Shown: piece by piece, positions 15,812 to 43,441 of the stretch
Numbering within the stretch: position 1 is the stretch's first letter
How the letters are laid out: every line of letters starts with the position of its first letter
Assembly: GCA_944332435.1 (NCBI GenBank)
Contig: CALVJW010000003.1
Span: forward strand, 1,022 to 65,021
Source of the DNA: an uncultured Bacilli bacterium
GTDB lineage: Bacteria; Bacillota_I; Bacilli_A; RF39; UBA660
Direction: 5' to 3'
DNA: 64,000 bases
The notes under the pieces: generated by a model
Told to the model about the DNA's origin: nothing
Seen by the model: the letters and a program-made list of their open reading frames with translations, nothing else
Databases searched by the model: none
Program-made: the position numbers and the translations under genes

Positions 15812-18439
15812 ATGACAAAATATGTATATGCATTTTCTGAAGGAAATAAGGATATGCGTGATCTACTTGGAGGAAAAGGTGCTAATTTAGCAGAAATGAC
15901 TTCTATTGGATTACCTGTTCCAAGTGGATTTACCGTTACAACAGAGGCTTGTAACAAGTACTATGATGATAATCAAGTAATTAGTGAAGAAGTAAAAGTG
16001 CAAATCTTTGAAGCGTTACAGGCATTAGAAAATCGTACTGGTAAAAAATTAGGGGATAAAGAAAATCCACTATTAGTATCAGTTCGTAGTGGTTCTCGTG
16101 CTAGTATGCCAGGAATGATGGATACAGTACTTAATCTGGGATTAAATGATGAAGTAGCTGTTGGTTTTAGTGAAAGTACAAATAATCCTAGATTTATCTA
16201 TGATTCTTATAGACGTTTTATTATGATGTTTGCAGACGTTGTAAAAGGTTATCCAAAACAATCTTTTGATCGTATTTTAGATAAAATAAAAGAAGAAAAA
16301 GGTGCAAAATACGATACGGATTTAACTGCAGAAGATATGATGGAAGTAACGAAGAAATTTAAAGAAGTTTATAAAGAATTATCTGGGGTAGATTTTCCAC
16401 AAGATCCAAAAGAACAATTAATTGAAGCAGTAACAGCTGTTTTCCGTTCTTGGAATAATGAAAGAGCCATCATTTATCGTAAAATGAACGATATTCCAAG
16501 TAGTTGGGGAACTGCAGTTAATGTTCAAGAAATGGTATATGGAAACCGTGGAGATAACTGTGGTACTGGAGTAGCATTTACTCGTAATCCAGCAACTGGA
16601 GAAAAGAAATTATTTGGTGAATATCTAATGAATGCCCAAGGAGAAGATGTAGTAGCAGGAATTCGTACTCCATCACCAATCGCAACATTAGAAACATCAA
16701 TGCCTGAAGTATATCAAGAATTTGTTCGTACAGCAAATATTTTGGAACAACATTATAAAGATATGCAAGATATGGAGTTTACAATTGAAAATGGTAAACT
16801 TTATATGCTACAAACACGTAATGGAAAAAGAACGGCTCATGCAGCTTTAAAAATTGCAGTTGATTTAGTAAATGAAGGTATGATTAGTAAAGAAGAAGCG
16901 ATTTTAAAAGTAGAACCAAAATCACTAGATCAATTATTGCATCCAATGTTTGATGGAGAAAGTTTGAAAAATGGAACCGTTATCGCAACAGGTCTTGCCG
17001 CTTCACCAGGAGCAGCAACTGGTAAAATTTATTTTACTGCTGAAGAAGCATCAAAAGCTCATGCAAATGGAATTCCATCAATTCTAGTTCGTTTAGAAAC
17101 TTCTCCTGAGGATATTCAAGGTATGAATGATGCTGAAGGAATTCTTACAATCCGTGGTGGTATGACAAGTCACGCAGCCGTAGTTGCACGTGGTATGGGT
17201 CGCTGCTGTGTTTGTGGATGTGGTGAACTAACTGTTGATGAAGAAAATAAAACTTTAACAACGAAAGATGGTCATGTATATCATGAAGGTGACGATTTAT
17301 CACTTGATGGATCAACAGGTTGTGTGTATGGGGAAGCTATTAAAACCGTTGCACCAATGATTAGTGGTGACTTTGAAACATTTATGAGTTGGGCTGATAG
17401 TATCAGAACACTTGGTGTACGTGCAAATGCTGATACTCCAAAAGATGCCGCACAAGCATTAAGTTTTGGTGCGGAAGGAATTGGGCTTGTTCGTACAGAG
17501 CACATGTTCTTTGAAACAGATCGTATTTTTGCAGTTAGACAAATGATTACTGCCGAAACAGTGGAACAAAGAGAACAAGCACTTGCTAAGATTTTACCAA
17601 TGCAACGTGATGACTTCGAAAAAATATTTGAAGCAATGAAAGGAAAACCAGTGACAGTTCGTTACTTAGATCCACCACTTCATGAATTTTTGCCTCATAC
17701 AGATGAAGAAATTAAACCACTTGCTGAAAGTCTTGGTATGACGTTTGAAACATTAAAAGCAAGAATTGATTCATTAAAAGAATTTAACCCAATGATGGGA
17801 CATCGTGGATGTCGTTTAGCAATTACTTATCCAGAAATTGCTCGTATGCAAACAAGAGCAATTATCGAAGCGGCAATCAATGTTAATAGTCGTGGTATGA
17901 ATGTTGTACCAGAAATTATGATTCCACTTGTTGGAGATGTAAATGAACTTAAATTTGTAAAACAAATTGTTGACCAAACAGCAAATGACGTAATGAAAGA
18001 AAAAGGTGTTACGTTAGATTATCATGTTGGAACAATGATTGAAATTCCAAGAGCAGCGCTTACTGCCGATAAAATTGCAGAACAAGCTGAATTCTTTAGT
18101 TTTGGTACAAACGATTTGACACAAATGACTTATGGATTTAGTCGTGATGATGCTGGTAAATTCTTAAATGATTATTATGATAAGAAAATATTTGAACAAG
18201 ATCCTTTTGCAAAACTAGATCAAACTGGTGTTGGAGCTTTAGTAGAAATGGCAGCACAAAAAGGAAGAAATACAAGACCAAATATGAAACTTGGTATTTG
18301 TGGAGAACATGGTGGAGAACCATCAAGTGTAGAGTTCTGTCATAAAGTAGGACTTACTTATGTATCATGTAGTCCATACCGTGTTCCAGTTGCTAGACTT
18401 GCAGCGGCACAAGCAGTTGTTAAGGAAGACAAAAATTAG
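15812..18439 (+). CDS. ppdK: pyruvate, phosphate dikinase
   Basis: N-terminus KYVYAFSEGNKDMRDLLGGKGANLAEM, phospho-His loop GGMTSHAAVVARGMG, and C-terminal GICGEHGGEP. RBS aaaggagg precedes the ATG at 15812. Confidence 0.93.
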   Translation: MTKYVYAFSEGNKDMRDLLGGKGANLAEMTSIGLPVPSGFTVTTEACNKYYDDNQVISEEVKVQIFEALQALENRTGKKLGDKENPLLVSVRSGSRASMPGMMDTVLNLGLNDEVAVGFSESTNNPRFIYDSYRRFIMMFADVVKGYPKQSFDRILDKIKEEKGAKYDTDLTAEDMMEVTKKFKEVYKELSGVDFPQDPKEQLIEAVTAVFRSWNNERAIIYRKMNDIPSSWGTAVNVQEMVYGNRGDNCGTGVAFTRNPATGEKKLFGEYLMNAQGEDVVAGIRTPSPIATLETSMPEVYQEFVRTANILEQHYKDMQDMEFTIENGKLYMLQTRNGKRTAHAALKIAVDLVNEGMISKEEAILKVEPKSLDQLLHPMFDGESLKNGTVIATGLAASPGAATGKIYFTAEEASKAHANGIPSILVRLETSPEDIQGMNDAEGILTIRGGMTSHAAVVARGMGRCCVCGCGELTVDEENKTLTTKDGHVYHEGDDLSLDGSTGCVYGEAIKTVAPMISGDFETFMSWADSIRTLGVRANADTPKDAAQALSFGAEGIGLVRTEHMFFETDRIFAVRQMITAETVEQREQALAKILPMQRDDFEKIFEAMKGKPVTVRYLDPPLHEFLPHTDEEIKPLAESLGMTFETLKARIDSLKEFNPMMGHRGCRLAITYPEIARMQTRAIIEAAINVNSRGMNVVPEIMIPLVGDVNELKFVKQIVDQTANDVMKEKGVTLDYHVGTMIEIPRAALTADKIAEQAEFFSFGTNDLTQMTYGFSRDDAGKFLNDYYDKKIFEQDPFAKLDQTGVGALVEMAAQKGRNTRPNMKLGICGEHGGEPSSVEFCHKVGLTYVSCSPYRVPVARLAAAQAVVKEDKN

Positions 18440-18470
18440 AACGCATAAGCGTGAAAAATATTAAGAATCA

Positions 18471-18496
18471 AAAAGAACAGAAATGTTCTTTTTTTG
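18471..18496 (+). terminator. ppdK terminator
   Basis: Hairpin gaaca-gaaa-tgttc followed by T7. Confidence 0.65.
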
Positions 18497-18660
18497 TTGG
18501 AATAAAAGGAATTAGTTAATGTTTTTTTAAATGTATTTGTTAAAAATAGTGTAATTAGTTTTATAAAAGAAAATAAAATTACGATTAGAAAATAGTCACA
18601 GTATAGTTAGGGTGACTATTTTTGGTTGGAAGAAATAAACATAAGAAAGGAGCGATTTAT

Positions 18661-19128
18661 ATGTATTATAGAAAACCAACATTAAAAAATCTTTCACAAG
18701 GAGCTCGACTTGAGTATGTTAGGAGATTAAGGCACATGAATGAAGATGATGTTGTTGAATATTTTGGATTTGGAGGAAGGTATCCTCGTAAAACATTCAG
18801 AAGCTATGAAGCTAACTATAGAGAACCAAGTAAAGAAAGACTAAAAGATATAGCAGAGTTATATGAAGTAAGTATTGATGCAATAAAAAAATATGACTTT
18901 AACGATCCGATAGATGTTATTTATTTTCATATGTGGTTGGAAGAAGAGTTTCCATATTACGAGATAAACTTCGATTGTGATAGTTATGAGAAAACAGATT
19001 ATAATGATATTGTTCAAAATGCTATTAGAGAATGGAAACAAATGAAAAAAAAAAGAGAAAATCTAGAAATATCCGATGATGAATATCTTGAATGGAAATT
19101 AAATTTTAAATTAGAAAAAGAATTTTAG
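18661..19128 (+). CDS. XRE-family helix-turn-helix regulator
   Basis: GARLEYVRRLRHMNEDDVVEYFG...FRSYEANYREPSKERLKDIAELYEVSIDAI follows the Cro/C1 HTH pattern (..yE.g.r.Ps...l..iA..l.vs.d.l). The ATG at 18661 sits behind RBS aaaggag. Confidence 0.55.
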   Translation: MYYRKPTLKNLSQGARLEYVRRLRHMNEDDVVEYFGFGGRYPRKTFRSYEANYREPSKERLKDIAELYEVSIDAIKKYDFNDPIDVIYFHMWLEEEFPYYEINFDCDSYEKTDYNDIVQNAIREWKQMKKKRENLEISDDEYLEWKLNFKLEKEF

Positions 19129-19202
19129 ATGAAGAATGAAAATATATGATATACTTAATATGAATATATATGCTTTGATTTTAAAAATATATGGAGGTAA
19201 AA

Positions 19203-20231
19203 ATGGAATATTTAATTAATAATGAAATAAATAGTGCAATATGTGATGTTGCAAGATTAATAAGTAATGATGAACAACAAATTAATCAATTGGTTGAAAT
19301 ATTGAAAAAAATGGTGACTGTTCAATTTACACAAAATGCGATTGAAGGGACATCTCATGCAGCAGGTACAGATCCTATAATTGATTTTAAGGAAGAAAAT
19401 GAAACATTTACAGTTGTATGTAATAAGATTATAGTTACTTTGCCATACTTATTAAGTGCAAATAATATCCACCATTTTAGAATTGATGCTAGACATGAAT
19501 TTTTTCATGCATTTGCTTATCTTCTAAATAATAAAATAATAAGATTAAATGTAGATAAAATGTACTTTAATTTAGGTGGAAAAATAAATGAACGAAGTAT
19601 GTATAATCCACGATGTGATAATAATGATTCATATGCTTCTATATTATTTAATGAAATCGTAACAGATCTTTCAGCTTATTGTTCATATTATCCCAAATTA
19701 AATATTAGTATGAACCAAATACTTAATGGTAATGGATTAGAAACTATAAATAATACATATGGTATGGGAAATGGATATTGTCAATTATTTCCTTTAGGAA
19801 TGTGTGTTATAAAAGCATTTTCAAATTATAATTGTGATTATGATAGGCTAGGACAAAATAAATTTGAAGCAAAGTATCAATCTGATAGTGATAAAGTTTA
19901 TTATAATGATCTATTATACGGAATCTTATACAATCCACTTAGCATTAAAGATTCATTTATAAAGTATACATCAGAAGAAGATTGGCAAACTTTAGAAAAC
20001 ATAGCAAAAAAGATTGTAACTGATTTTAAAGAAAAAGATAGAAAAGTAGATTATGATAATATTCAAGAATTTTTAACAGTTTTAGCAAAATATCTAAATA
20101 ATAAATATCAAAAGACAAATGATCTTATTCTAAAACAACAACTAACTATAATAATAGCTGAATTTAATGAATATTATAAAAAGGCATTAAATTATTATGG
20201 TAATTTAGGCTATAATAGAAATACTAGGTAA
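19203..20231 (+). CDS. hypothetical protein with an HExxH motif (putative zinc metallopeptidase in an ImmA/IrrE-like position)
   Basis: The HEFFH motif (RHEFFHAFAY) is the only recognisable feature. The placement between an XRE-HTH gene and a recombinase mirrors immR-immA-int modules. Confidence 0.4.
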   Translation: MEYLINNEINSAICDVARLISNDEQQINQLVEILKKMVTVQFTQNAIEGTSHAAGTDPIIDFKEENETFTVVCNKIIVTLPYLLSANNIHHFRIDARHEFFHAFAYLLNNKIIRLNVDKMYFNLGGKINERSMYNPRCDNNDSYASILFNEIVTDLSAYCSYYPKLNISMNQILNGNGLETINNTYGMGNGYCQLFPLGMCVIKAFSNYNCDYDRLGQNKFEAKYQSDSDKVYYNDLLYGILYNPLSIKDSFIKYTSEEDWQTLENIAKKIVTDFKEKDRKVDYDNIQEFLTVLAKYLNNKYQKTNDLILKQQLTIIIAEFNEYYKKALNYYGNLGYNRNTR

Positions 20232-20333
20232 ATATATTCTCAAAGAAGTAGGAATACTTCTTTTTCTTATGCCTAAAATCGCATCCTAATAATTATTTAT
20301 AAAAGATGATAAAGTTTTTATAGAGGTGATTTA

Positions 20334-21950
20334 ATGAAAAGAAAGGTAGCAATATATGCAAGAGTTTCAACAGAACATGAAGCTCAATTATCTGCTTTAG
20401 ATAATCAAGTCCAATATTATGATAGTATTTTGAAACAACATCCTGATTGGATTCTATATGATAGATATATCGACGAGGGTATAACTGGCACTTCTACTAA
20501 GAAGAGAAAAAATTTTATGAAAATGCTAGAAGATGCTAAAGAAGGTAAATTTGATTTAATAGTTACTCGTGAAGTATCAAGATTTGCAAGAAACACAGTT
20601 GATACTTTACAAGAAACTAGGAGGCTAAAGAAGATAGGAGTTGAAGTTTATTTTACTGAAGATAATATATGGACATTTAATGATGAAGATGGAGAGTTAA
20701 AACTTACAATAATGGCAACACTTGCTCAAAATGAAAGTAAAAAAACTTCTCAAAGAGTAAAAGCTGGCCAAATGATTTCATTTCAAAATGGAGTGTTCTA
20801 TGGAACAGGTAATATACTTGGATATGATAAAGTAGGTAAAGATTTAGTAGTTAATGAAGAACAAGCTGAAATAGTAAAATTTATTTATTCAGAGTATTTA
20901 AATGGTAAGGGAACAGTTTCTATAGCAGATGAATTAACAAGGAAAGAAGTAAAAACATCAACCGGGCTAACTAACTGGAGTCCGTCTTACATATCAAGAG
21001 TATTAAGAAACCCATTTTATTCAGGTACAATAGTTTATAGGAAATCATATATACCAGATTATCTAGAACAAAAGCCTGAAATGAATTATGGAGAAGTAGA
21101 ACAAGTAATTGTAGAAGGTAAACATGAGCCGCTTGTATCAAAAGAAGACTTTAAAAAAGTTCAAGAAATAATGGATGGTCATTCAAAACAAATTAAACTT
21201 GGTATTAGACGAGCTAAAGGAACTGCTAAAAATATTTGGAGTAAAAAGTTAATATGTGAATGTGGGTCTAATTTCAATAGAAGAGTATATCATAGGAATA
21301 AAACTAACACTACATTTTCTTACGATTGCTATAATAGAAAAATGCATCCTGATAGTAAATATAAAAATACTGATTATAAATTGTGTGAAGTAAAAGAAGT
21401 TCAAGAGTGGAAATTACAATTTATGGCTGAAGCAATTTTTACAAAGCTTACACAAGATACGGATAATAGAAAAGAATTAGTTAATAAATTAATGAATGGA
21501 GTGAAAATAGATGATCATCCAGAGAAAAAAATAAAACAAAGAATTGATAAATTAAATCAATTAATAAAAAAGGAAACAGCAAAATTAGATAAACTAATAG
21601 ATACATATTTAGATGAAACAATAAATATAACAATGTATGATATATTCCAAAAGAAGTTATCAAGTAGAATAGAAAAATATAAAATAGAAATTAGCGAATT
21701 AGAAAAAGAATATAAATCAATAGAACCATTAGAGGTAAGAATTGAAAAGGTAAAAAATAGTATTCGTAAATTATTAGATATTAGTTATAATGGTGTTGAT
21801 GAAAAAATAATAGAAGAATTTGTAGATAAAATAATAGTTCATAAAGATTATTTTGAATGGAAGTTAAATTTTATGAATGAAACAATAAAGTTAGAAATAA
21901 GTGGTAAAAGTAAATCAGATTGCTTTGTTGTGGAATATAAGGAAAAATAA
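20334..21950 (+). CDS. large serine recombinase (resolvase/invertase N-domain, recombinase domain, zinc ribbon, coiled coil)
   Basis: VAIYARVSTEHE (catalytic Ser region), DLIVTREVSRFARN, TLAQNESKKTSQRVKAG, a Cys cluster CECGS...CYNRK, and a long K/E-rich coiled-coil C-terminus. Confidence 0.9.
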   Translation: MKRKVAIYARVSTEHEAQLSALDNQVQYYDSILKQHPDWILYDRYIDEGITGTSTKKRKNFMKMLEDAKEGKFDLIVTREVSRFARNTVDTLQETRRLKKIGVEVYFTEDNIWTFNDEDGELKLTIMATLAQNESKKTSQRVKAGQMISFQNGVFYGTGNILGYDKVGKDLVVNEEQAEIVKFIYSEYLNGKGTVSIADELTRKEVKTSTGLTNWSPSYISRVLRNPFYSGTIVYRKSYIPDYLEQKPEMNYGEVEQVIVEGKHEPLVSKEDFKKVQEIMDGHSKQIKLGIRRAKGTAKNIWSKKLICECGSNFNRRVYHRNKTNTTFSYDCYNRKMHPDSKYKNTDYKLCEVKEVQEWKLQFMAEAIFTKLTQDTDNRKELVNKLMNGVKIDDHPEKKIKQRIDKLNQLIKKETAKLDKLIDTYLDETINITMYDIFQKKLSSRIEKYKIEISELEKEYKSIEPLEVRIEKVKNSIRKLLDISYNGVDEKIIEEFVDKIIVHKDYFEWKLNFMNETIKLEISGKSKSDCFVVEYKEK

Positions 21951-21985
21951 TATTCAGTGGTATAATATAAGAAGGAGATGGTCTC

Positions 21986-23410
21986 ATGGATCAAACATAT
22001 TGTGGTGATTTAATATTTAATAACATAAAATACAAATTCGATTTTAGAAACAATGTTTTAGTTATTATTCCTGATGAATTAGAAGATTATACAAAATGGC
22101 ATTTTAAAAATATAGGTAGTAAAGATAAATTTGAACGAGTAAATGTTGAAGGTACTACTAACAATGGTTTTTATATTTGTTTTATTCATGTTAAATTTTC
22201 ACATATGGGAAGGGGAATATTACAAGCGTTTGTACCTGGATATGTTATTTGCAAAGCCGTTGGAGTAAGTCCTCTTCCTAAATGTGAAGAAATTAGTAAA
22301 ATAAGATTTTTCGGTGAATGTTTAGATAGATTCTATTATCCAAAAAGAATAATTAAAACCAGTGATTTTTTTCAGTCAAATGATATAACTTTAGAGGTGA
22401 ATAAAAATAAACTTAAAACAGATAATTTTATTATTAATAAAGATGTATTTAAATTTGGAGTAGCATGGAAAATTCCTTTTAGTTCTAATATTAATGTTGT
22501 TCTTGATGTTGAATCATTTTTAGAAATTGAATTTAATACTAAACAAAACATAGATGAAATTGTTGAGTATTATTTAAAGGTAAAAAAATTCTTTTCTTTT
22601 ATAAATAATAGAAAATATATAAAATTCAATAAAGTTATAGCATATACTACTATTCCGGTAAACTACGGAATAAAACGAGATGATATTAGAAACGAAGAAT
22701 TTAAATTTGAATTCTATTTTGTAGATCCTGATGAGAAATATGATTTAGATAAAGCTAATAATTCAATTCATTTAGAAGATTTAGACAATAAATTTTCGAA
22801 AATATATAAGTTAGTTACTAATAAGGATTTTTTGACAGAATATTATCCATTAAGTATATCAGATAATAATTATGTGGATAATGATAAATATGTTAATGTT
22901 GCTAGAGCATTTGAATCTGAATTTGATAAATTGTATCCAAAATTCAAAGCAAAGACGAGTGAAGAATATAATGCTGTAAAAAAAGCGTTATTGAAATGTT
23001 TATCAAATAAGAAGAATAATGCTAATTTAGCAATAAAAAAAGAGAAAGATATAAAATATAATAAAAAGATTATAAAAGAATGTAACTATTTTAATAAAAT
23101 TATTAGCAAAATGGAAGGGAGTTTGTCAGAAAAAGTAACATACTCTTTAAGAAAATATAAAGAGATTATTTCTAATAAAAAGAAGTTAATGCTAAATAAT
23201 TATCAAATTACCAAAATAAAAGATGGAGTTTTAGCTGACAAATTTAAAGAAAGAAGAAATGCTATTTCACATGGAAGTTCTGCTAATGCTTTTACTGATA
23301 TAGAAGTAATAGCATATGAACTAGTAAGAATGTGTATATATTGTATAACATTAGAAAGATGTAAAATGTCAGAGGAAAAAATAGATAATATAGTTAGTAA
23401 AATATTTTAA
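21986..23410 (+). CDS. HEPN-motif protein, ApeA-like architecture (beta-rich N-domain plus C-terminal HEPN)
   Basis: 474 aa. The C-terminal helical region carries KERRNAISHG, which is R-N-x3-H and so fits the HEPN Rx4-6H RNase motif with the typical polar residue after Arg. Size and layout resemble single-gene ApeA defence proteins. The assignment was made without a profile search. Confidence 0.5.
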   Translation: MDQTYCGDLIFNNIKYKFDFRNNVLVIIPDELEDYTKWHFKNIGSKDKFERVNVEGTTNNGFYICFIHVKFSHMGRGILQAFVPGYVICKAVGVSPLPKCEEISKIRFFGECLDRFYYPKRIIKTSDFFQSNDITLEVNKNKLKTDNFIINKDVFKFGVAWKIPFSSNINVVLDVESFLEIEFNTKQNIDEIVEYYLKVKKFFSFINNRKYIKFNKVIAYTTIPVNYGIKRDDIRNEEFKFEFYFVDPDEKYDLDKANNSIHLEDLDNKFSKIYKLVTNKDFLTEYYPLSISDNNYVDNDKYVNVARAFESEFDKLYPKFKAKTSEEYNAVKKALLKCLSNKKNNANLAIKKEKDIKYNKKIIKECNYFNKIISKMEGSLSEKVTYSLRKYKEIISNKKKLMLNNYQITKIKDGVLADKFKERRNAISHGSSANAFTDIEVIAYELVRMCIYCITLERCKMSEEKIDNIVSKIF

Positions 23411-23557
23411 AAAAAATAAGTTATTTTAGTCAAAATAGAACGGTATATCGTTCTTTATAGTATTCCTAAGTATTTTGTGGCACAAGCTGCAGTCAAATCT
23501 GCTGGAAAAAATTAATAGAACATAAAAATACTTGCTGTTAAATTAATTCTTATAAAG

Positions 23558-23585
23558 GACGATAAAACAAAATCGTCTTTTTTTA
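23558..23585 (+). terminator. rho-independent terminator downstream of the HEPN-motif gene
   Basis: Hairpin ggacgat-aaaacaaa-atcgtc followed by T8. A weaker hairpin (agaacg/cgttct) lies at 23437-23454. Confidence 0.6.
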
Positions 23586-23589
23586 TTGA

Positions 23590-23920
23590 AGAAGACGATA
23601 ATAGATTAAATTTAGAATTAATATGTGATGAATATGATAGTCCAATATATTACTAGAGTTATTACAGAGTATGAATCAAAAAAGAAAGCAATCGTTTTGG
23701 TAAATAAGTATAAAGACTACAATTAGTGAGAAAAATTAAATTTTCAAAGTTTAGAACGAACTACGCAAGAGCAGAAAATATTCAAGAATTTTTAGAGAAT
23801 AATTTAGATTCAAAATAGTTATTATCAAAAGAAGAAATTGAGTGGGTAACAACTTATCTTTGAGAAATGAAAAAGTATTTTTACACGTTACTACATCTAT
23901 TGTAATAAATATTGGATATT
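23590..23920 (+). pseudogene. decayed gene fragment; its C-terminal part is homologous to the fragment at 27267-27366
   Basis: The reading frame is broken by several stops (..KFSKFRTNYARAENIQEFLENNLDSK*LLSKEEIEWVTTYL*EMKKYF..). It shares the 20-nt string atgaaaaagtatttttaca and an EEIEW peptide with 27267-27366. Confidence 0.35.
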
Positions 23921-24167
23921 TGCATAAAGATTCTTTTTAGAAGAAAGAACAGAGCAAGTTAGTGATAATAAAAAACAAAATGTATAAAATATAAATATAT
24001 AATAAAGACAATCTTGAGGAGTGATAGATTATCACTTTTTTATTATGATTTAGAACGATGAATAGTAAGGCATTTTTCACAAGAAGTAATGAGATGGTTA
24101 ATACGAACATTTCATTGACAATGTACCTTTTTATGTTATAATAACAAAACAAAAGGAGGAAATTTTT
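23921..24167 (+). repeat. terminator-promoter cassette, copy 1 (paralogous to 25934-26211)
   Basis: Roughly 80% similar by eye to copy 2: agattcttttt-agaaga..., aaaacaaaatgtat.aaatataaata, and hairpin gaggagtgat...atcac(t)ctttt, followed by a TTGACA-16-TATAAT promoter. Confidence 0.7.
24115..24142 (+). promoter_or_regulatory. sigma-A type promoter of repeat-protein gene 1
   Basis: TTGACA (24115-24120), 16-nt spacer with TGt extended -10, then TATAAT (24137-24142). RBS aaaggagga follows. Confidence 0.6.
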
Positions 24168-25907
24168 ATGTTCGAAGAAGACCTAGAAATACTAAAAATT
24201 TTAAACTGTAATAATGCATCGATGATTTTTAATTACGCTACAGGAAATAGAAGAATGAGTAAAGAAGTATTAGAGAAACTTGAGGATGCGATTATAGCAA
24301 CAGAATATGCAATGTACATTTGTTTTTTTGCAAAAAATATAGAAGGGGCAAATATAGCAAAGCTAGAAGACGCCATTATAGAGATTGGAGATGCCAAATA
24401 TATTTATCATTTTGCAAGGGATATAGAAGAAGCAAATATAGCAAAACTCGAAGATGCCATTATAAAAACTGGAAGTATAGACTATATTTTTGATTTTGTA
24501 AAAAATGTAACAGGAGTAAATATTGAAAAATTCGAAGATGCTATTATAAAAACTGGAAAATTAAGTACTATCAGTCGTTTTGCAACAGAGGTAGAAGGAG
24601 TAAATATTGAAAAATTAGAAAAAGCAATTATAGCAATAGGAAGAGCAGACTTTATTTTTTTGTTTGCAAAAGATGTAGACGGAGCCTATATAGCAAAACT
24701 AGAAGACGCCATTATAGTAACAGGAAATGCTGAATATATTTATAGGTTTGCACGTGAGATAAAAGGAGCAAATTTTGAAAAATTAGAAAATGCCATTATA
24801 GTAACAGGAAATGCCGAATATATTTATAAGTTTGCTAGAGATGTAAAAAGAGCAAATGTTGGAAAATTAGAAGAGACTATTATAGCAACAGGAAATGCTG
24901 AATATATTTATAAGTTTGCTAGAGATGTAAAAAGAGCAAATGTTGGAAAATTAGAAGAGACTATTATAGCAACAGGAGACGCCGAATACATTTGTGAGTT
25001 TGCAAAAAATGTAACAGGAGCAGATATGCCAAAATTAGGAGAAGCAATCATAGCAACAGGAGACGCCAAATACATTTGTGAGTTTGCAAAAAATGTAACA
25101 GGAGCAGATATGCCAAAATTAGGAGAAGCAATCATAGCAACAGGGAAAGCCGAATATATTTATAAGTTTGCAATGGAAACAAAAAGAGCAAATATAGCAA
25201 AATTAGAAGAAGCAATGATAGCGACAGGAAATGCCAAATATATTTATCTCTTTGCAAGAATCGGTGTAGTATATGAAAGTGAAATAATCAGTTTACCAAA
25301 ATTAGAAGAAGCTATTATAAATACAGGAGATGCAAAATATATTTATAAGTTTGCAAAAGAAGTAAAAGGGGCAAATATATCAAGATTAGAAGATGTAATT
25401 ATAGCAACAGGAGACGCTGAATATATTTATTGTTTTGCAAGAGACGTAGAAAGAGTAGTTATCGCAAAACTAGGATCTGTTATTATATCAATAGGGGACG
25501 CCGAATATATTTATAAGTTTGCCAAAGATGTAAAAAGAGCAAATATTGAGAAATTAGAAGAAGCTATCATGGCAACGAGAAATGTAAAATATATTTGTAG
25601 GTTTGCCAAAGATGTAAAAGGAACAAATATTGCAAAATTAGAAGATGCAATTATAGCAACAGGGAATGCCAATGATATTTATTGTTTTGCACTCGTTGTA
25701 GGAGACGCCAATATAATAAAACTAGAAGATGCAATTATAGCAACAGAGGATGCTGAATATATTAACTCTTTTGCAAGAGATGTAATCGGAGCAAATATAG
25801 AAAAATTAGAAGAAGCGATTCAAAAAGTCGAAGAAAATACAAAAATAATAAAGAAAATTCAGAGAAAATTTCAAATTTATCAGAAGAAAAAACGTGAAAA
25901 TGATTAA
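24168..25907 (+). CDS. tandem-repeat protein, about 18 copies of a 28-aa predicted helix-turn-helix-hairpin repeat (family not recognised)
   Basis: 579 aa. The consensus unit is LEDAIIATGNAEYIYKFARDVKGANIAK repeated head to tail. There is no signal peptide or TM segment. The gene has a strong RBS and promoter. Confidence 0.85.
   Translation: MFEEDLEILKILNCNNASMIFNYATGNRRMSKEVLEKLEDAIIATEYAMYICFFAKNIEGANIAKLEDAIIEIGDAKYIYHFARDIEEANIAKLEDAIIKTGSIDYIFDFVKNVTGVNIEKFEDAIIKTGKLSTISRFATEVEGVNIEKLEKAIIAIGRADFIFLFAKDVDGAYIAKLEDAIIVTGNAEYIYRFAREIKGANFEKLENAIIVTGNAEYIYKFARDVKRANVGKLEETIIATGNAEYIYKFARDVKRANVGKLEETIIATGDAEYICEFAKNVTGADMPKLGEAIIATGDAKYICEFAKNVTGADMPKLGEAIIATGKAEYIYKFAMETKRANIAKLEEAMIATGNAKYIYLFARIGVVYESEIISLPKLEEAIINTGDAKYIYKFAKEVKGANISRLEDVIIATGDAEYIYCFARDVERVVIAKLGSVIISIGDAEYIYKFAKDVKRANIEKLEEAIMATRNVKYICRFAKDVKGTNIAKLEDAIIATGNANDIYCFALVVGDANIIKLEDAIIATEDAEYINSFARDVIGANIEKLEEAIQKVEENTKIIKKIQRKFQIYQKKKREND
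24816..25145 (+). repeat. two pairs of (near-)perfect 84-bp tandem duplications inside the repeat-protein gene
   Basis: 24816-24893 equals 24900-24977 (offset 84 nt, identical). 24978-25061 versus 25062-25145 differ at one base (E->K). Confidence 0.9.
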
Positions 25908-25933
25908 ATAACTTAGTGAATTCGCATACTATT

Positions 25934-26211
25934 TACATAGAGATTCTTTTTTAGAAGAAGAATCATCTCAAGCTAGTAATGATAAAAACAAAATGTATCA
26001 AATATAAATAATATGACTATATATAGTAAAACATTGTGAGGAGTGATTGCTCATCACTCTTTTATTATGTTTTAGAACGATAGATATTTTGTAGTTGACA
26101 ACAATATTGGTAGTGAGTTTTACCAAAAGAAACAACACAATGATTGAAATTATCTTTCGTTGACAAAATAACTTTTTATGCTATAATAACATGCAAAAGG
26201 AAGGGAATTAT
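25934..26211 (+). repeat. terminator-promoter cassette, copy 2
   Basis: Paralogous to 23921-24167. It has the hairpin gagtgat-tgctc-atcactc at 26041-26059 and the promoter TTGACA (26160-26165)-16 nt-TATAAT (26182-26187). Confidence 0.7.
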
Positions 26212-27234
26212 ATGGCTAGTGAAGAAACAAGAATACAAGAAATTTTTAATTATATACGAGAAAAAAAATATAATAGTAAAGAAGAATTAAGTAAATTAGA
26301 AGATGAGATTATAATGACTGGAGATGCTCAATACATCTATGAGCTTATGAGAGATGTTATAAGATTAAACCTTGATGGAATAAATATATCAAAGTTAGAA
26401 GATGCCATTATAAAAGCTGGGGATGTAGGATATATGTACCGTTTTGCTGGCTATGCTGTTGATTCCAAATTTAAAGGGGTAAATATTTGGAAAATAGAAG
26501 ATGCCATTATAAAAACTGGAAATGTTGAATATATTTATTATTTTGCTGGTATTACAGGCGCTAATATCGCAAAACTCGAAGATGCACTTATAGAAATAGG
26601 AAATGTTGAATATATTTATTATTTTGCAAAAAGCGTAAAAGGATCAAATATTGAAAAATTAGAAAATGCCATTATAGCTACAAAAAATATAGAATATATT
26701 TGTAAGTTTGCAAGATACGTAAAAGGATCAAATATTGAAAAAATAGAAGATGGTATTATAAAAACTGAGGATGCAAGATGCATTTATGAATTCGTAATTT
26801 CTACTATAGGGCTTCATATTAAAGGAATAAATATGCTAAAGTTAGAGGACGCCATTATAGCAACAGGGAATGCTGAATATATTTATAAGTTTGCTCGTAA
26901 CATTGCTGGAGCAAATATTGCAAAATTAGAAGACACTATTATAGCAACCGGAAATGCTCAATATATTTATTATTTTTTTAGAGTTGCTGGAGCAAATATT
27001 ACAAAGCTGGAAGAAGCATTATTAAAAACTGGAAACGCAAAATATATGTATTTTTTAGTAGGATATATTGAGGATTCAAAATTTGAAGGCATAAATATTG
27101 CGAAATTAGAAGATGCCATTATAGCAACCGGAGACGCCGAATATATTTATTGGTTTGCATGTAACGTTGATGGAGCAAATATTGCAAAATTAATAAATGA
27201 CGAAAGAGATTCAAAAGTATTGAAAAAATTATGA
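26212..27234 (+). CDS. tandem-repeat protein paralog, about 10 copies of the same 27-33-aa repeat
   Basis: Same unit as the upstream gene (LEDAIIATGNAEYIYKFARNIAGANIAK). Some units carry a 5-aa insertion (..DSKFKGVNI..). The ATG at 26212 sits behind RBS aaggaaggg. Confidence 0.85.
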   Translation: MASEETRIQEIFNYIREKKYNSKEELSKLEDEIIMTGDAQYIYELMRDVIRLNLDGINISKLEDAIIKAGDVGYMYRFAGYAVDSKFKGVNIWKIEDAIIKTGNVEYIYYFAGITGANIAKLEDALIEIGNVEYIYYFAKSVKGSNIEKLENAIIATKNIEYICKFARYVKGSNIEKIEDGIIKTEDARCIYEFVISTIGLHIKGINMLKLEDAIIATGNAEYIYKFARNIAGANIAKLEDTIIATGNAQYIYYFFRVAGANITKLEEALLKTGNAKYMYFLVGYIEDSKFEGINIAKLEDAIIATGDAEYIYWFACNVDGANIAKLINDERDSKVLKKL

Positions 27235-27266
27235 TAAAAATTTAAATAAAAAAACTTATTATATTA

Positions 27267-27366
27267 AAAAGAAATCGAATGGTTAGCTAATTTGTCTTTG
27301 GCGGATGAAAAAGTATTTTTACATGCTGCTGTATCTATTGCAAAAATAAGAGAATTAAAATGATAA
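27267..27366 (+). pseudogene. orphan C-terminal gene fragment, homologous to 23828-23912
   Basis: Translates as KEIEWLANLSLADEKVFLHAAVSIAKIRELK* with no upstream ORF. It matches the decayed fragment upstream of repeat gene 1. Confidence 0.35.
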
Positions 27367-27461
27367 AGTTACTTTTAATCTTGCTAGTTTAGATGTCATC
27401 TTTATTGAAAAAATTTATCAAATATGACTGTAGTATCAACAACACCATAGTGTAAAATAAT

Positions 27462-27492
27462 AAAAAAGTAACATGAATTTGTTACTTTTTTT
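27462..27492. terminator. bidirectional terminator at the right edge of the island
   Basis: aaaaaagtaac-atgaattt-gttactttttt, with A and T runs on both sides. Confidence 0.6.
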
Positions 27493-27540: not shown

Positions 27541-28440
27541 ATGAATATACTATGTATTGGACATGCAGCATATGATACAACAGTACCTGTATTAAATTTC
27601 CCAGAGGAAAATACCAAAAATCGAGTACCTGAAAGACTTGGTAATGGGGGAGGACCTGCTAACAATGCGGCATATTTACTTGGCAAATGGGGAATGAATA
27701 CTTATTTTGCAGGAATTGTTGGCGATGATCAGGACGGAAGAAAAATAGAGGAAGAGTTAAAACAGGTTGGAGTAAATACAAAGTATTTAGAGTTTAATAA
27801 AGAACATACGACGACTTCCAGCTTTATTATAGCAAATCAGAAAAATGGTTCTAGAACGATTATGACATATCGACCTAGTCATATGGCAATGACAGATGTT
27901 TCGGTCACGGAAGATATCGATGTAATATTAGTTGATGGACAAGAATATGAATTTTCGAAAAAGATGTTAGAGCAATATCCTAATGCAATATCAATTATTG
28001 ATGCAGGAAGACCAGTAGAAGAGGTAATTGACTTGTGCCACAAAGTAAATTATGTTGTTTGTTCTAAAGAATTTGCAGAAACAGTAGCAAATACCAAAAT
28101 AGAAATGGATCATTTTGAAACTTTGACTCAAACTTTAGAAACTTTAGAACAGTTATTTCATACAACCATTGTAATTACATTAGAGGCAAATGGTTGTTTA
28201 TATCGTGAATCTGGGGTTGTAAAAATAATGCCTTCATTGGAAGTAACACCAGTTGACTCAACCGGTGCGGGTGATATTTTTCATGGAGCATTTACATATG
28301 CGATTAGTAATCATTATTCTTTCGAAGATAGTTTGCGAATTGCTTGTATAGCTGGAGCAATATCGGTAACAAGACTTGGTAGTAGAAGATCGATGCCAGA
28401 AAAAGAAGAAATGAAGAAGTATTTTTATGAGTTTAAATAA
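27541..28440 (+). CDS. PfkB-family carbohydrate kinase (ribokinase-like)
   Basis: N-terminus ILCIGHAAYD, GGGPANNAAYLLGKWG, and C-terminal DSTGAGDIFHGAF (the PfkB signature). Confidence 0.85.
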   Translation: MNILCIGHAAYDTTVPVLNFPEENTKNRVPERLGNGGGPANNAAYLLGKWGMNTYFAGIVGDDQDGRKIEEELKQVGVNTKYLEFNKEHTTTSSFIIANQKNGSRTIMTYRPSHMAMTDVSVTEDIDVILVDGQEYEFSKKMLEQYPNAISIIDAGRPVEEVIDLCHKVNYVVCSKEFAETVANTKIEMDHFETLTQTLETLEQLFHTTIVITLEANGCLYRESGVVKIMPSLEVTPVDSTGAGDIFHGAFTYAISNHYSFEDSLRIACIAGAISVTRLGSRRSMPEKEEMKKYFYEFK

Positions 28441-28801: not shown

Positions 28802-28834
28802 ATGCAACATCAAATTGGAAAGAGGGGGAATTTT

Positions 28835-30211
28835 ATGTATAATGAACGTAGAGAAAATTTTTCAATCAAAGATATCGTATTACAAATCTTATTTGTAATT
28901 GTGTTTATCTTTATTTTGATGTGGTTATTTCCATCAAAAAGCTTTGTAAAGGAATCATTGCAACCTTTGTATGATCGAATTTTTAACGAGAATATTCTTA
29001 TGATGAAGGATGCAGCAAAAAGTTATTATACTGATCCAAGATTACCACAAAAAGTTGGAGATAAAGTATCAATGACTTTAGGTGAAATGTTAGATAAGAA
29101 AATTATCTTACCATTTACAGATAGTAAAGGTAGAGCTTGTGATAATGTTGGTTCTTACGTAGAAATTACGAAAATGGACGAAGAGTATATCATGAAAGTT
29201 AATTTAAAATGTACAGAACAAGAAAATTACTTATTAGTATACATGGGATGCTATACTTACTGTACAACAACAATTTGTGAGAAAAATGAAAAGGATGTTG
29301 CAACTCCAACTATTTTCCCAACAAATCCAGGAAGACCAGGAAATACACCAAAACCTGATAAGACTCCAACTCCAACTTCAAAACCAACGCCAACGCCAAC
29401 ACCAACTTCAAAACCAACGCCAACACCGACTCCAACGCCACCAGGTAAAGAATATATTTGTCAATATATTAAGACAGTAGATGCTTCTTATACGCAATGG
29501 GGTAATTGGTCAAGTTGGTCAACAACAGAAAGATTTGAAAATGATTTAACACAGGTAGAATCTAAAACAGAAATTACATATACAACTGAGACAAAACAAA
29601 TTGGTGAAAGAATTAAAACGAGAACAATTACATATAAAGATAAGAATAAACCAATTTATGGATGGAAAGAAGTAAAAGTTCAAATTGGTTCTGAAAATAA
29701 AAAAGTATGTACAGCAACAACGAAAAAAGAAGTAGGAACAGGAGAATACGCTTACACAGAATGGAAAGATACTGGAGTACAAAAACAATTTACGAGTGAA
29801 CCACCAGTAAGTGCTACAGAAAGATGGTACTTTGTACGTACGATTAATCAAGATTGTAATTGTGCATTTGGAAAAGTAAGAATTTACGCACAACAAACAA
29901 GAAAAAAATATGAAATTACGAAAACACAAGAAGTTTGTACGAAATGGGAAGTAAAAAGTGTTCCAATTTATACAACTCAAAAAGTAAAAGTTATTGTAGA
30001 TTATGGAACATCACAACGTGTGGAAACATATAAAGAACCAATTTATGGTGAAGTAAAAGTTCCACATAGTACAACATATTATCGTTATCGTACACGTGAT
30101 ATTATTGACGGATATCGTGATGAAGTATGGATTGATTGTGATGACAAAGATGCAGCTAATAAATTGAAGAAAAAAGGCTATAAATTTACAGGAGTTAGAA
30201 AAGAAAAATAG
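28835..30211 (+). CDS. membrane-anchored hypothetical protein with a Pro/Thr-rich linker
   Basis: N-terminal TM segment (IVLQILFVIVFIFILMWLF), a Cys-containing globular region, the linker TPKPDKTPTPTSKPTPTPTPTSKPTPTPTPTPP, then a K/T/E-rich beta-like domain starting with WGNWSSWS. RBS agaggggg lies before the ATG at 28835. Confidence 0.6.
   Translation: MYNERRENFSIKDIVLQILFVIVFIFILMWLFPSKSFVKESLQPLYDRIFNENILMMKDAAKSYYTDPRLPQKVGDKVSMTLGEMLDKKIILPFTDSKGRACDNVGSYVEITKMDEEYIMKVNLKCTEQENYLLVYMGCYTYCTTTICEKNEKDVATPTIFPTNPGRPGNTPKPDKTPTPTSKPTPTPTPTSKPTPTPTPTPPGKEYICQYIKTVDASYTQWGNWSSWSTTERFENDLTQVESKTEITYTTETKQIGERIKTRTITYKDKNKPIYGWKEVKVQIGSENKKVCTATTKKEVGTGEYAYTEWKDTGVQKQFTSEPPVSATERWYFVRTINQDCNCAFGKVRIYAQQTRKKYEITKTQEVCTKWEVKSVPIYTTQKVKVIVDYGTSQRVETYKEPIYGEVKVPHSTTYYRYRTRDIIDGYRDEVWIDCDDKDAANKLKKKGYKFTGVRKEK
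29364..29441 (+). repeat. in-frame 30-nt tandem repeat encoding the PT linker
   Basis: ccaacttcaaaaccaacgccaac occurs at 29372 and 29402. Confidence 0.8.
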
Positions 30212-30227
30212 AAAGGAGTAATGTGGT

Positions 30228-39736: not shown

Positions 39737-40013
39737 TTAAAAAGTGACTTGTAGTCACTTTCAGACTGTTGGCAACCCTCCTTGTTTGAAAAAATCTAAA
39801 AGTTGGATTTCCAAAAGTGGGAGAAGAATATTAAAACTTGAATGATTTTAGACTATAATTCCTAAAATTGTTCTTTTTTTATGTTAAAGTGGAAAATATA
39901 AAAGGCCGTTGACAAATCCGATTTGAAAATCGACTTTGTCAGCGACCTGAAATTAACATTTCTGTTAGTTTTTTTCTATTAGAAATGTTCTAATGAAAGA
40001 AGTAAAAAAATTT

Positions 40014-40995: not shown

Positions 40996-41062
40996 TAATA
41001 TACCATTTTTTTACTTTTTTTGATTATTGGCTTTAAAAAGCTAAAATAGAAAGGATTGATTT

Positions 41063-43436: not shown

Positions 43437-43441
43437 AGTAA

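What the first reader, a model, noticed from the sequence alone, without database searches (positions are those of the whole stretch)
18497..27492. About 9-kb A+T-rich accessory island between ppdK and a sugar kinase: recombinase, regulator pair, HEPN protein and duplicated repeat proteins
Core genes with clean terminators (ppdK at 18471-18496 and a bidirectional hairpin at 27462-27492) bracket a block of six intact genes and several decayed fragments, all on one strand. None of them is housekeeping. The block combines a mobile-element backbone (XRE-HTH, HExxH protein, large serine recombinase) with cargo typical of conflict islands. The cargo is a HEPN-motif protein and two fast-evolving repeat proteins, each behind its own strong promoter. 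Because the cargo could not be placed in a named multi-gene system, this is the best candidate in the window for an undescribed system.
Basis: partly seen in the sequence, partly recalled or inferred. Interest (0 to 1): 0.7.

Follow-up and report, generated by a model that had tools for sequence, protein, structure and literature searches.

The report
Recombinase defence cassette beside repeat genes
The 9-kb block is two unrelated things side by side: a 5.1-kb mobile cassette, moved by a serine recombinase and inserted into the end of the ppdK gene, that carries a probable anti-phage RNase, and a duplicated pair of repeat-protein genes of unknown function.

Summary
The block is real and accessory: relatives have ppdK followed closely by the pfkB kinase. 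It is not one island or one system.

Part 1 (18415-23487, 5,073 bp) is a large-serine-recombinase cassette inserted into the last codons of ppdK. The 9-mer GGCACAAGC occurs only twice in the window, at 18406 and 23479. The cassette supplies a new ppdK tail and terminator. The displaced native tail and terminator lie at 23488-23581. Sibling cassettes sit at the same site in hosts whose ppdK is only 62-78% identical. One copy is 98.9% identical up to the right core and 81% just beyond it.

The backbone is XRE plus recombinase, with two cargo slots. Slot 1 holds the HExxH protein here, a type IIG R-M or PDC-M49 in siblings. Slot 2 holds a 474-aa HEPN protein that is a divergent ApeA-like protein, with an invariant RRNxxxHG motif. 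PADLOC does not detect it.

Part 2 (23591-27492) holds two paralogous genes built from 28-residue repeats, each behind a perfect consensus promoter. They lie outside the cassette and do not co-occur with the HEPN gene elsewhere.

Verdict: a new member of a known kind (an SCC-like defence-carrying cassette). Interest is moderate to low.

The parts
18406..18414 (+). attL core GGCACAAGC, inside the last codons of ppdK (G|GCA|CAA|GC)
   Evidence: One of only two occurrences in 64 kb. It aligns with the duplicated ppdK tail after the HEPN gene and with the equivalent sites in L084 and L011.
18415..18496 (+). Cassette-supplied replacement ppdK 3' end (..AVVKEDKN*, stop at 18437-18439) and replacement terminator hairpin 18471-18496
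   Evidence: The tail and hairpin are conserved with the sibling cassettes L084 and L011 but not with the empty-site relative L004.
18661..19128 (+). XRE-type HTH protein, 155 aa from the ATG at 18661 (the ORF opens at TTG 18622); left-end backbone gene of the cassette
   Evidence: HTH_3 22 bits, cutoff 23; phrog_8 transcriptional regulator, E 1.2e-6. Homologues (38-80% identity) lie directly after ppdK in L005, L009, L011, L029, L084, L104 and L115.
19203..20231 (+). HExxH protein (342 aa), cargo in slot 1; zincin-like motif H102ExxH106 with invariant E155
   Evidence: No hit in Pfam, NCBIfam or PADLOC. Only 9 homologue clusters, all at least 64% identical. Motif residues are invariant. The AlphaFold model is poor, pLDDT 55. 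Sibling cassettes hold defence systems in the same slot.
20334..21950 (+). Large serine recombinase (538 aa)
   Evidence: Resolvase and Recombinase domains; phrog_95 integrase, E 1.2e-122; best NCBIfam model CcrB, 141 bits, far below its cutoff of 900. Homologues are 66-98% identical in sibling cassettes.
21986..23410 (+). ApeA-like HEPN protein (474 aa), cargo in slot 2; beta-rich N-terminal domain 1-245, helical HEPN domain 263-474, motif R423-R424-N425-x3-H429-G430
   Evidence: ApeA_NTD1 24.8 bits, cutoff 25.5. Family members hit HEPN_Apea and ApeA_NTD1. Invariant residues. AlphaFold model pLDDT 85.5.
23418..23431 (+). Conserved right-arm motif AAGTTATTTTAGTC, about 50 nt before the attR core
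   Evidence: Present as AAGTCATTTTAGTC at the same relative position in L084 and L011, although the preceding gene differs in L011.
23479..23487 (+). attR core GGCACAAGC
   Evidence: Second and last occurrence in the window. Identity to L105 is 98.9% to the left and 81% to the right of it.
23488..23590 (+). Displaced native ppdK tail (..AAVKSAGKN*, stop at 23513-23515) and native terminator (stem 23554-23581)
   Evidence: The in-frame ppdK-like tail appears in alignment A3.
23591..24167 (+). Non-coding or decayed stretch: repeat X1 (23851-23908), a copy of the rep1-rep2 intergenic terminator and promoter region (23917-24164), and the rep1 promoter at 24115-24142
   Evidence: Stops in all three forward frames. 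Direct repeats D4-D6, D8 and D13-D14. Alignment A6. Promoter scores 12/12.
24168..25907 (+). rep1: 579-aa protein of 18-19 tandem 28-residue repeats
   Evidence: 84-nt period, 71-79% matches; repeat dissection.
26038..26187 (+). rep1 terminator (26038-26062) and rep2 promoter (26160-26187)
26191..27234 (+). rep2: 347-aa ORF of 10 repeats of 27-33 residues. The true start is probably the ATG at 26212, because 26191 lies 3 nt after the -10 box.
   Evidence: The start position is inferred by comparison with the rep1 leader (D6).
27289..27346 (+). Repeat X2, 78% identical to X1; together they bracket the rep1-rep2 pair
   Evidence: D5; alignment A2.
27463..27492 (.).
   Evidence: Read directly from the sequence. 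Not scored by the scanner, which needs 3 G-C pairs.

Best explanation
The region holds two independent accessory units. Unit 1 (18415-23487, 5,073 bp) is a small integrative cassette moved by its own large serine recombinase. It recombines with a site in the last codons of ppdK, around CACAAGC. It keeps ppdK intact by bringing a substitute tail and terminator, and pushes the native tail and terminator to its right end. This is the same logic as SCC cassettes at the 3' end of rlmH. Its backbone is an XRE-type regulator at the left end plus the recombinase. It has two cargo slots: XRE-to-recombinase and recombinase-to-attR. In this copy slot 1 holds an orphan HExxH (zincin-like) protein. Slot 2 holds a 474-aa ApeA-like HEPN protein, 36 nt after the recombinase gene and probably co-transcribed with it. 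By inference from characterised ApeA proteins, the HEPN protein is a latent RNase. Its N-terminal domain would sense an infection cue and its dimeric Rx4H site would then cut tRNA or other RNA, aborting phage growth; this benefits both host and cassette. Unit 2 (about 23591-27492) lies in the native, strain-variable ppdK-pfkB spacer. It is a tandem duplication (promoter, gene and terminator) of a gene encoding 28-residue repeats. These are probably cytoplasmic helical-hairpin solenoids, strongly expressed and prone to changes in repeat number. Their function is unknown and they are not linked to Unit 1. Shown: the boundaries, the mobility across hosts, the modular cargo, the family assignments and the lack of co-occurrence. 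Inferred: RNase activity, the defence role, co-transcription and the solenoid fold.
For: Empty site and hotspot. Synteny xerC-ppdK-pfkB-Smr is conserved, with ppdK followed by pfkB within 26-540 bp in five relatives and other inserts in further relatives. Attachment sites. GGCACAAGC occurs only at 18406 and 23479. A second in-frame ppdK tail and a terminator follow the right copy. The same duplicated tail follows the last cassette gene in L084 (CACAAGCTGCTAT) and L011 (ACAAGCTGCAAT, then QAAIKSGANK* and a hairpin), with a shared right-arm motif. Boundary and transfer. L105 is 98.9% identical over 1,672 nt up to the core, 81% in the next 77 nt, and unrelated after that. L115 has the recombinase and HEPN genes at 97% nucleotide identity next to a ppdK only 66% identical in protein, with a different slot-1 gene. 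L084, L104 and L106 show further variants. Cargo. Slot 1 in L084 holds MTase_II plus REase_MTase_IIG (1297 bits). Slot 1 in L011 holds PDC-M49A (625 bits) plus PDC-M49B. Slot 2 in L011 holds a 226-aa membrane protein. HEPN protein. R424, N425, H429 and E310 are conserved across a superfamily of 662 representatives. HEPN_Apea matches 8 of 42 members and ApeA_NTD1 5 of 42, and P0200 passes the HEPN_Apea cutoff (32.7 bits against 24.4). More distant homologues sit in other mobile contexts with Mob_Pre, IS110 or another recombinase. Characterised ApeA is a single-protein HEPN anticodon nuclease. Repeat genes. They have perfect promoters and a duplicated intergenic region. Homologues form a tandem pair between thioredoxin and whiA in another genome, and strains there differ by exactly 56 aa, or two repeats. 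There is no co-occurrence with HEPN.
Against: No circular junction or empty attB from the same species was found; the one exact-pattern scan found nothing. Excision is therefore not shown. L104 and L106 carry damaged recombinase genes, so some copies are decaying. The window's own HEPN protein falls 0.7 bits short of the ApeA_NTD1 cutoff and has no HEPN_Apea hit of its own. PADLOC finds nothing. Foldseek finds no structural neighbour in PDB or BFVD. Characterised ApeA proteins have a mainly helical N-terminal region, whereas this one is beta-rich. The trigger and even the target could therefore differ. No activity was tested. The repeat proteins have no assigned fold or function. Repeats X1 and X2 flanking them could mean that they too arrived as a unit.
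Confidence: 0.75

Rival explanations
1. The whole 9-kb block is a single island, and the HEPN protein works together with the two repeat proteins as a multi-gene conflict system.
For: The genes are adjacent and on the same strand in this strain and in contigs L001 and L002 from other samples.
Against: The attR core, the native ppdK tail and a terminator separate them. Sibling cassettes end right after the HEPN gene and are followed by unrelated DNA. HEPN and repeat genes co-occur only in the same strain: 2 of 26 HEPN loci, and 6 of 8 repeat loci lack HEPN. Each repeat gene has its own promoter and terminator.
Confidence: 0.04
2. The ApeA-like HEPN protein is a selfish stabilisation (addiction) toxin that keeps the cassette in the chromosome, not an anti-phage defence.
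For: It is tightly linked to the recombinase, with a 36-nt gap, in the window, L084, L105 and L115. It is retained in L106 even where the recombinase is truncated. HEPN toxins are common in toxin-antitoxin modules.
Against: No antitoxin-sized ORF lies next to it. Homologues at 48-57% identity stand without an adjacent recombinase. The nearest described families are single-protein defence RNases. Sibling cassettes carry classical defence cargo.
Confidence: 0.12
3. XRE and the HExxH protein form an ImmR/ImmA-type repressor and anti-repressor protease pair that controls cassette excision; HExxH is backbone, not cargo.
For: An HTH gene is followed directly by a gene with an invariant HExxH motif, upstream of the recombinase. 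This order recalls immR-immA-int modules (established knowledge of ICEBs1). The same pair occurs in L104.
Against: The HExxH protein has no Peptidase_M78 or other hit, even at E 0.1. The gene after XRE is unrelated in L084 (methyltransferase), L011 and L115 (Zn-finger protein), while XRE stays conserved. The HExxH family is tiny, with 9 clusters.
Confidence: 0.15
4. The repeat-gene block is the remnant of a second cassette inserted in tandem at the same hotspot, as in composite SCC islands.
For: Direct repeats X1 and X2 (78% identical over 58 nt, extending to about 130 nt) bracket rep1-rep2. Decayed sequence precedes rep1. L105 has a second recombinase/Mob element downstream of the same cassette. 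The spacer is variable in relatives.
Against: The block contains no recombinase, no XRE remnant and no third ppdK tail or GGCACAAGC core. Its GC equals the genome mean. X1 and X2 are explained equally well by the tandem duplication that also copied the promoter region. Homologous repeat-gene pairs sit among core genes elsewhere.
Confidence: 0.15
5. The block is a decayed prophage or phage satellite.
For: The recombinase's best PHROG is a phage integrase family, and the XRE protein weakly resembles phage repressors.
Against: There are no structural, packaging, replication or lysis genes. There is no match to 50,697 phage records or to IMG/VR contigs. The complete unit between the att cores is only 5.1 kb.
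Confidence: 0.03

Closest known systems
SCC and SCC-like cassettes of staphylococci (Ccr large serine recombinases; defence cargo, PMC11470126)
   Same: A small non-conjugative cassette moved by a large serine recombinase. It inserts in the 3' end of a conserved housekeeping gene without inactivating it, has short direct-repeat cores at both ends, carries exchangeable defence cargo, and shares the site with tandem neighbours. The best NCBIfam model for the recombinase is CcrB.
   Different: The target is ppdK, not rlmH. There is one recombinase gene, not ccrAB. The score is far below the Ccr cutoffs (141 bits against 900). The hosts are uncultured gut Bacilli or 'Tenericutes' MAGs. An XRE gene is part of the backbone. 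Excision was not shown.
ApeA, the single-protein HEPN anti-phage system (Gao et al. 2020; bioRxiv 10.64898/2026.01.26.701840)
   Same: [quoted passage not shown] It has weak but repeated profile similarity to HEPN_Apea. It has no partner gene and is carried on mobile DNA.
   Different: Characterised ApeA proteins are mainly helical, with N-terminal and Mid domains. This protein has a beta-rich N-terminal domain. PADLOC's models do not detect it, and it has no structural neighbour in PDB. Trigger, oligomeric state and RNA target are unknown.
ApeA-NTD1 plus HEPN(ApeA) architecture of Anantharaman et al. 2013 (PMC3710099; Pfam PF18862 and PF18739)
   Same: A mostly beta N-terminal domain of about 300 aa with conserved aromatic residues, fused to an ApeA-type HEPN domain. 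That description fits the model and alignment here.
   Different: The window protein scores just under the NTD1 cutoff. Only a minority of its superfamily is recognised by either Pfam model, so it is a divergent, largely unannotated branch.
ImmR/ImmA (ICEBs1) and phage CI-type repressor/metalloprotease modules
   Same: An HTH gene followed by an HExxH gene, next to an integrase-type gene.
   Different: There is no Peptidase_M78 similarity, and the pair is not conserved among sibling cassettes.
Alpha-solenoid repeat proteins (HEAT, PBS-lyase or TPR-like)
   Same: Tandem 28-residue units with two amphipathic stretches separated by Gly/Asn turns. The repeat number is variable and the repeats are fused to other domains in homologues (PcfJ-like in P0100).
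   Different: No Pfam repeat family matches at the level of single repeats. There is no PDB relative by sequence. The fold was not predicted here.

Membership tests
Large serine recombinase (integrase type) | N-terminal resolvase catalytic domain followed by the Recombinase domain, in a protein of about 450-700 aa | tested here: met
   PF00239 98.6 bits (residues 5-148) and PF07508 87.6 bits (175-281) in a 538-aa protein; phrog_95, E 1.2e-122. The YARVS motif near residue 12 is read from the sequence.
Large serine recombinase (integrase type) | Element bounded by att sites that share only a short core, with the recombinase gene inside the element | tested here: met
   The 9-nt core occurs only at 18406 and 23479. 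A step in identity occurs at the right core. Equivalent cores are found in L084 and L011.
Large serine recombinase (integrase type) | Excision or integration activity | not testable with these tools
   No circular junction or same-species empty site was retrieved.
SCC Ccr recombinases (CcrA/B/C) | Score above the NCBIfam equivalog cutoff | tested here: not met
   CcrB 141.1 bits against a cutoff of 900; CcrC 112.6 against 900.
SCC Ccr recombinases (CcrA/B/C) | Insertion at the 3' end of rlmH (orfX) | tested here: not met
   The target is the 3' end of ppdK.
HEPN superfamily | Rx4-6H motif on a helix of an all-helical domain, plus a conserved acidic residue in the first helix | tested here: met
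   R424-N425-x3-H429 and E310 are invariant across 42 sequences down to 19% identity. Residues 263-474 are helical in the model.
ApeA-like (Pfam ApeA_NTD1 + HEPN_Apea) | Hits to PF18862 and PF18739 above the gathering score | tested here: inconclusive
   Window protein: PF18862 24.8 bits against 25.5, and no PF18739 hit. Full-length homologues: PF18739 in 8 of 42 and PF18862 in 5 of 42. P0200 scores 32.7 against 24.4. Precomputed PF18862 hits exist on 5 of 41 close homologues.
ApeA defence system (as in PADLOC and the characterised E. coli proteins) | Detection by the defence-system profile | tested here: not met
   No PADLOC hit for the protein or for 25 close homologues. One weak hit (Cas13-ApeA, E 0.0018) among 42 distant ones.
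ApeA defence system (as in PADLOC and the characterised E. coli proteins) | Helical N-terminal and Mid domains forming a ligand pocket with HEPN; doughnut-shaped oligomers | tested here: not met
   The model has a beta-rich domain at residues 1-245, against the helical description. Foldseek against PDB (entries to April 2026) gave no hit with E below 0.001. The oligomeric state is not testable here.
ApeA defence system (as in PADLOC and the characterised E. coli proteins) | Anti-phage protection through tRNA anticodon cleavage | not testable with these tools
   This needs experiments.
ImmR/ImmA-type regulatory pair | Peptidase_M78 (COG2856) metalloprotease domain next to its cognate HTH repressor, with the pair conserved together | tested here: not met
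   No M78 hit at E up to 0.1. The gene after XRE differs in L084, L011 and L115.
Prophage or phage satellite | Structural, packaging or replication genes, or similarity to known phage genomes | tested here: not met
   PHROGs gives only integrase and regulator hits. There are no hits in INPHARED or IMG/VR.

The most novel reading that the evidence does not exclude
The orphan HExxH protein (19203-20231) occupies the same cargo slot that holds a type IIG R-M system and the PDC-M49 candidate system in sibling cassettes. It could therefore be a new single-gene, zincin-type anti-phage defence. In parallel, the ApeA-like protein with a beta-rich N-terminal domain may stand for a large, unannotated defence clade (662 representative clusters). 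Current defence finders miss this clade, and it may sense a different trigger from the deoxydinucleotides that activate characterised ApeA.
Probability: 0.25. Interest if true: 0.6.

Novelty: new member of a known kind. Interest (0 to 1): 0.35.

Why it matters
The result gives base-pair boundaries, the target site and sibling copies for a previously undescribed family of small serine-recombinase cassettes. These cassettes shuttle defence genes between uncultured gut Bacilli by inserting into the 3' end of ppdK. That makes them a natural 'defence slot' for finding new immunity genes by position; here the candidates are the HExxH protein and a DUF4379 zinc-finger protein. It also flags a sizeable ApeA-like HEPN clade that PADLOC does not recognise. 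Finally, it removes a false lead: the repeat proteins are not part of any system with the HEPN gene.

Tried and rejected
- Exact-protein look-ups of ppdK and pfkB, each with two alternative starts, found nothing. No same-species empty site was obtained that way.
- An exact 24-nt attR/attB pattern found no match in JGI metagenomes.
- The ApeA-like profile found no relative in IMG/VR.
- tblastn of the HEPN and rep2 proteins against the phage and plasmid collections found no match.
- PDB sequence searches with the A1 and A4 profiles and with rep2 gave only chance-level coiled-coil hits or nothing.
- Foldseek of the good HEPN model against PDB and BFVD found nothing below E 0.001.
- The AlphaFold model of the HExxH protein, built from a shallow 9-sequence alignment, reached only pLDDT 55. 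I did not use it for a fold search.
- I considered that 23600-23830 is a decayed second XRE/HExxH copy, because of short repeats D11 and D19. I rejected this: tblastn gives only 7-12-residue matches with E above 1.
- I considered that repeats X1 and X2 are duplicated pfkB 3' ends. The similarity is limited to an 18-mer with two mismatches, so it stays unexplained and is probably chance.
- The DUF1184, OHA and SH3_6 hits to the repeat proteins are summed weak matches with no single significant stretch. I disregarded them.
- Cluster look-ups returned no informative names.

Full report
**Observation**

The window is low-GC (28.3%) DNA. The nearest ppdK in the reference genome set is 83% identical in protein and comes from uncultured gut 'Mycoplasmatota/Bacilli' MAGs.

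The recombinase is a clear large serine recombinase: Resolvase 98.6 bits, Recombinase 87.6 bits, and phrog_95 at E 1.2e-122. The XRE call is weak but consistent: HTH_3 22 bits, phrog_8 at E 1.2e-6. The HExxH protein matches no family in four libraries. Both repeat genes sit behind perfect TTGACA-16-TGnTATAAT promoters. 'A+T-rich' is only mildly true: the left 5 kb is 25.1% GC and the right 4 kb is 28.0%, against a window mean of 28.3%.

**The block is accessory**

I fetched 80 ppdK loci from one-genome-per-species references and mapped the window's proteins onto them. The order xerC-ppdK-pfkB-Smr-(469-aa protein) is conserved. In L004, L017, L025, L036 and L046, ppdK is followed by pfkB within 26-540 bp. 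Other relatives carry 1-4.5 kb of unrelated genes in that spacer, including HD-domain, YitT-like, pilin-like and zinc-ribbon proteins. The refuting scenario of conserved core synteny for the block therefore does not hold.

**The block is composite**

A homologue of the XRE gene lies directly after ppdK in several relatives. In L011 a 66%-identical recombinase follows 7 kb later.

Looking up the HEPN protein's homologues gave L084: ppdK, XRE, a methyltransferase, a 1350-aa type IIG enzyme, the recombinase, the HEPN gene, then unrelated genes. Its DNA similarity to the window stops about 30 nt after the HEPN stop codon.

Reading the sequence just beyond that point showed a second ppdK 3' end. 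Positions 23479-23515 read GGCACAAGC TGCAGTCAAATCTGCTGGAAAAAATTAA (..AQAAVKSAGKN*), followed by a terminator at 23554-23581. The functional ppdK reads GGCACAAGC AGTTGTTAAGGAAGACAAAAATTAG at 18406-18439.

GGCACAAGC occurs nowhere else in the 64 kb. L084 and L011 show the same arrangement. A duplicated ppdK tail beginning (C)ACAAGC lies 70-80 nt after the last cassette gene, preceded by a shared motif AAGTYATTTTAGTC. This holds even though in L011 the last gene is a 226-aa membrane protein rather than a HEPN gene.

It is therefore cassette DNA.

**Independent confirmation of the right boundary, and of mobility**

Metagenome contig L105 carries the recombinase end and the HEPN gene. It is 98.9% identical to the window over 1,672 nt up to the core. 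Identity then drops to 81% in the next 77 nt, a related but different ppdK tail (..AQAAIKSGGKN*). After that the DNA is unrelated: tRNA-Met and tRNA-Leu, a second 638-aa recombinase, and a Mob-like relaxase.

L115 has the recombinase and HEPN genes at 97% nucleotide identity. They sit beside a ppdK only 66% identical in protein and a 74%-identical XRE, and slot 1 holds a 748-aa DUF4379 zinc-finger protein. High identity begins just upstream of the recombinase gene.

L104 has XRE plus HExxH (90%) with a broken recombinase. L106 keeps only a recombinase stub plus the HEPN gene.

Together these show a family of cassettes specific for the ppdK 3' end. They have moved recently between hosts and exchange cargo in two slots. 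PADLOC identifies the sibling slot-1 cargo as MTase_II plus REase_MTase_IIG (1297 bits) in L084, and PDC-M49A/B (625 and 63 bits) in L011.

**The HEPN protein**

Forty-one close clusters (44-99% identity) and a superfamily of 662 representatives, mostly 440-490 aa and matched over nearly their full length, were found. R424, H429 and E310 are invariant, and N425 and F309 nearly so, down to 19% identity. This fits the HEPN Rx4H signature.

The window protein scores 24.8 bits on ApeA_NTD1 (cutoff 25.5). Among its relatives, HEPN_Apea is hit by 5 of 25 and 8 of 42, and ApeA_NTD1 by 3 of 25 and 5 of 42. One relative (P0200) passes the HEPN_Apea cutoff.

The AlphaFold model is confident (pLDDT 85.5, pTM 0.80). 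It shows a beta-rich domain (1-245) and a helical domain (263-474). [quoted passage not shown]

The experimentally characterised ApeA proteins are described differently: mainly helical, forming doughnut-shaped oligomers, cleaving tRNA anticodon loops, and activated by deoxydinucleotides. PADLOC does not detect the window protein or its close relatives. Foldseek finds no neighbour in PDB or BFVD.

I therefore file it as a divergent ApeA-like HEPN protein. It probably works like ApeA, as a latent RNase triggered by infection, but its membership of the characterised ApeA system is not established. More distant homologues lie next to Mob_Pre relaxases, IS110, or another recombinase on the opposite strand, without repeat proteins. 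This pattern is typical of stand-alone mobile cargo.

**The HExxH protein**

Only nine clusters exist, all at least 64% identical. H102-E103-x-x-H106 and E155 are invariant, a gluzincin-like spacing. The structure prediction failed at pLDDT 55. The protein is not conserved with XRE across cassettes, so an ImmR/ImmA-type pair is unlikely. Its position in a slot that elsewhere holds defence systems makes it a candidate defence gene by position only.

**The repeat genes**

rep1 has 18-19 units and rep2 has 10 units of a 28-residue repeat (some 27 or 33). The consensus is KLEDAIIATGNAEYIYKFARDVKGANIA, encoded by an 84-nt period. The upstream 230 nt, with terminator and promoter, are duplicated as well. 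A 58-130-nt repeat (X1/X2) brackets the pair. rep2 probably starts at 26212.

At least 338 homologue clusters exist and none is named. Some are fused to a PcfJ-like domain or to other N- or C-terminal domains.

In another gut genome a tandem pair of such genes lies among core genes, between a thioredoxin gene and whiA. Strains there differ by exactly two repeats. No locus other than this strain's combines them with an ApeA-like gene.

The block lies beyond attR and has genome-average GC. I read it as a lineage-specific, tandemly duplicated pair of probable solenoid proteins, with function unknown. A decayed second cassette cannot be excluded.

**Comparison and verdict**

The closest known analogue is the SCC or SCC-like cassette. 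It has a serine recombinase, inserts in the 3' end of a housekeeping gene with a short direct-repeat core, carries no transfer genes, and carries defence cargo that can sit in tandem arrays. It is not a Ccr/SCC member: the scores are far below cutoff and the target differs.

The finding is a real and now well-delimited mobile defence cassette, plus an unrelated neighbour. It is not an undescribed multi-gene system. Novelty is a new member of a known kind. Two loose ends could hold something new: the HExxH cargo, and the beta-domain ApeA-like clade.

Noticed in passing
window 40000-43520: A tyrosine integrase gene (42302-43294, Phage_integrase 64.9 bits) lies directly next to tRNA-Leu(tag) 43351-43435 and tRNA-Met 43442-43518. 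It sits at the edge of the lowest-GC stretch of the window (20.7% at 41-43 kb), which also shows a local strand switch. This is probably a second integrated element.
   Followed up: partly
L105:2927-7162: Downstream of a near-identical copy of the cassette, a related host has tRNA-Met/tRNA-Leu followed by a different 638-aa serine recombinase and a 460-aa Mob_Pre-like relaxase. This is a second mobile element at the same neighbourhood.
   Followed up: partly
L115:2020-4266: Slot 1 of a sibling cassette holds a 748-aa protein with eight DUF4379 treble-clef zinc-finger repeats (486 bits) around a central domain. It has no PADLOC hit and is another candidate defence gene by position.
   Followed up: partly
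L011:17291-19616: A sibling cassette carries the PADLOC candidate system PDC-M49: A at 625 bits (677 aa, ABC-ATPase-like) and B at 63 bits (113 aa), immediately upstream of the recombinase.
   Followed up: yes
window 23867-23884, 27305-27322, 28411-28428: The 18-mer ATGAAAAAGTATTTTTAC occurs in both X repeats, and with two mismatches at the 3' end of pfkB (EMKKYFY). Three matches were found against 0.07 expected. Its meaning is unknown and it may be chance.
   Followed up: partly
L015:5032-5514 and L020:5751-6302: In two relatives the ppdK-pfkB spacer holds a roughly 160-aa ORF (MKIKTGYLYHIKDEYFDVVND...) that looks by eye like a ToxN/AbiQ-type toxin. It was not tested against any profile.
   Followed up: no
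L098:6332-9314 vs L101:3288-4613: In another gut genome, the first gene of a tandem pair of repeat-protein genes is 497 aa in some samples and 441 aa in others, a difference of exactly two 28-residue repeats. This is repeat-number polymorphism.
   Followed up: partly
window 28802-31970 and 13765-14742: Three conserved neighbours have no Pfam family. One is a 469-aa protein with a Pro/Thr-rich linker that is syntenic after Smr in relatives. The others are a 580-aa protein and a 325-aa protein upstream of xerC.
   Followed up: no
L009:19860-22608: In one relative with an XRE homologue after ppdK, no serine recombinase lies within 10 kb. Instead there are three consecutive tyrosine-recombinase genes on the opposite strand.
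   Followed up: no
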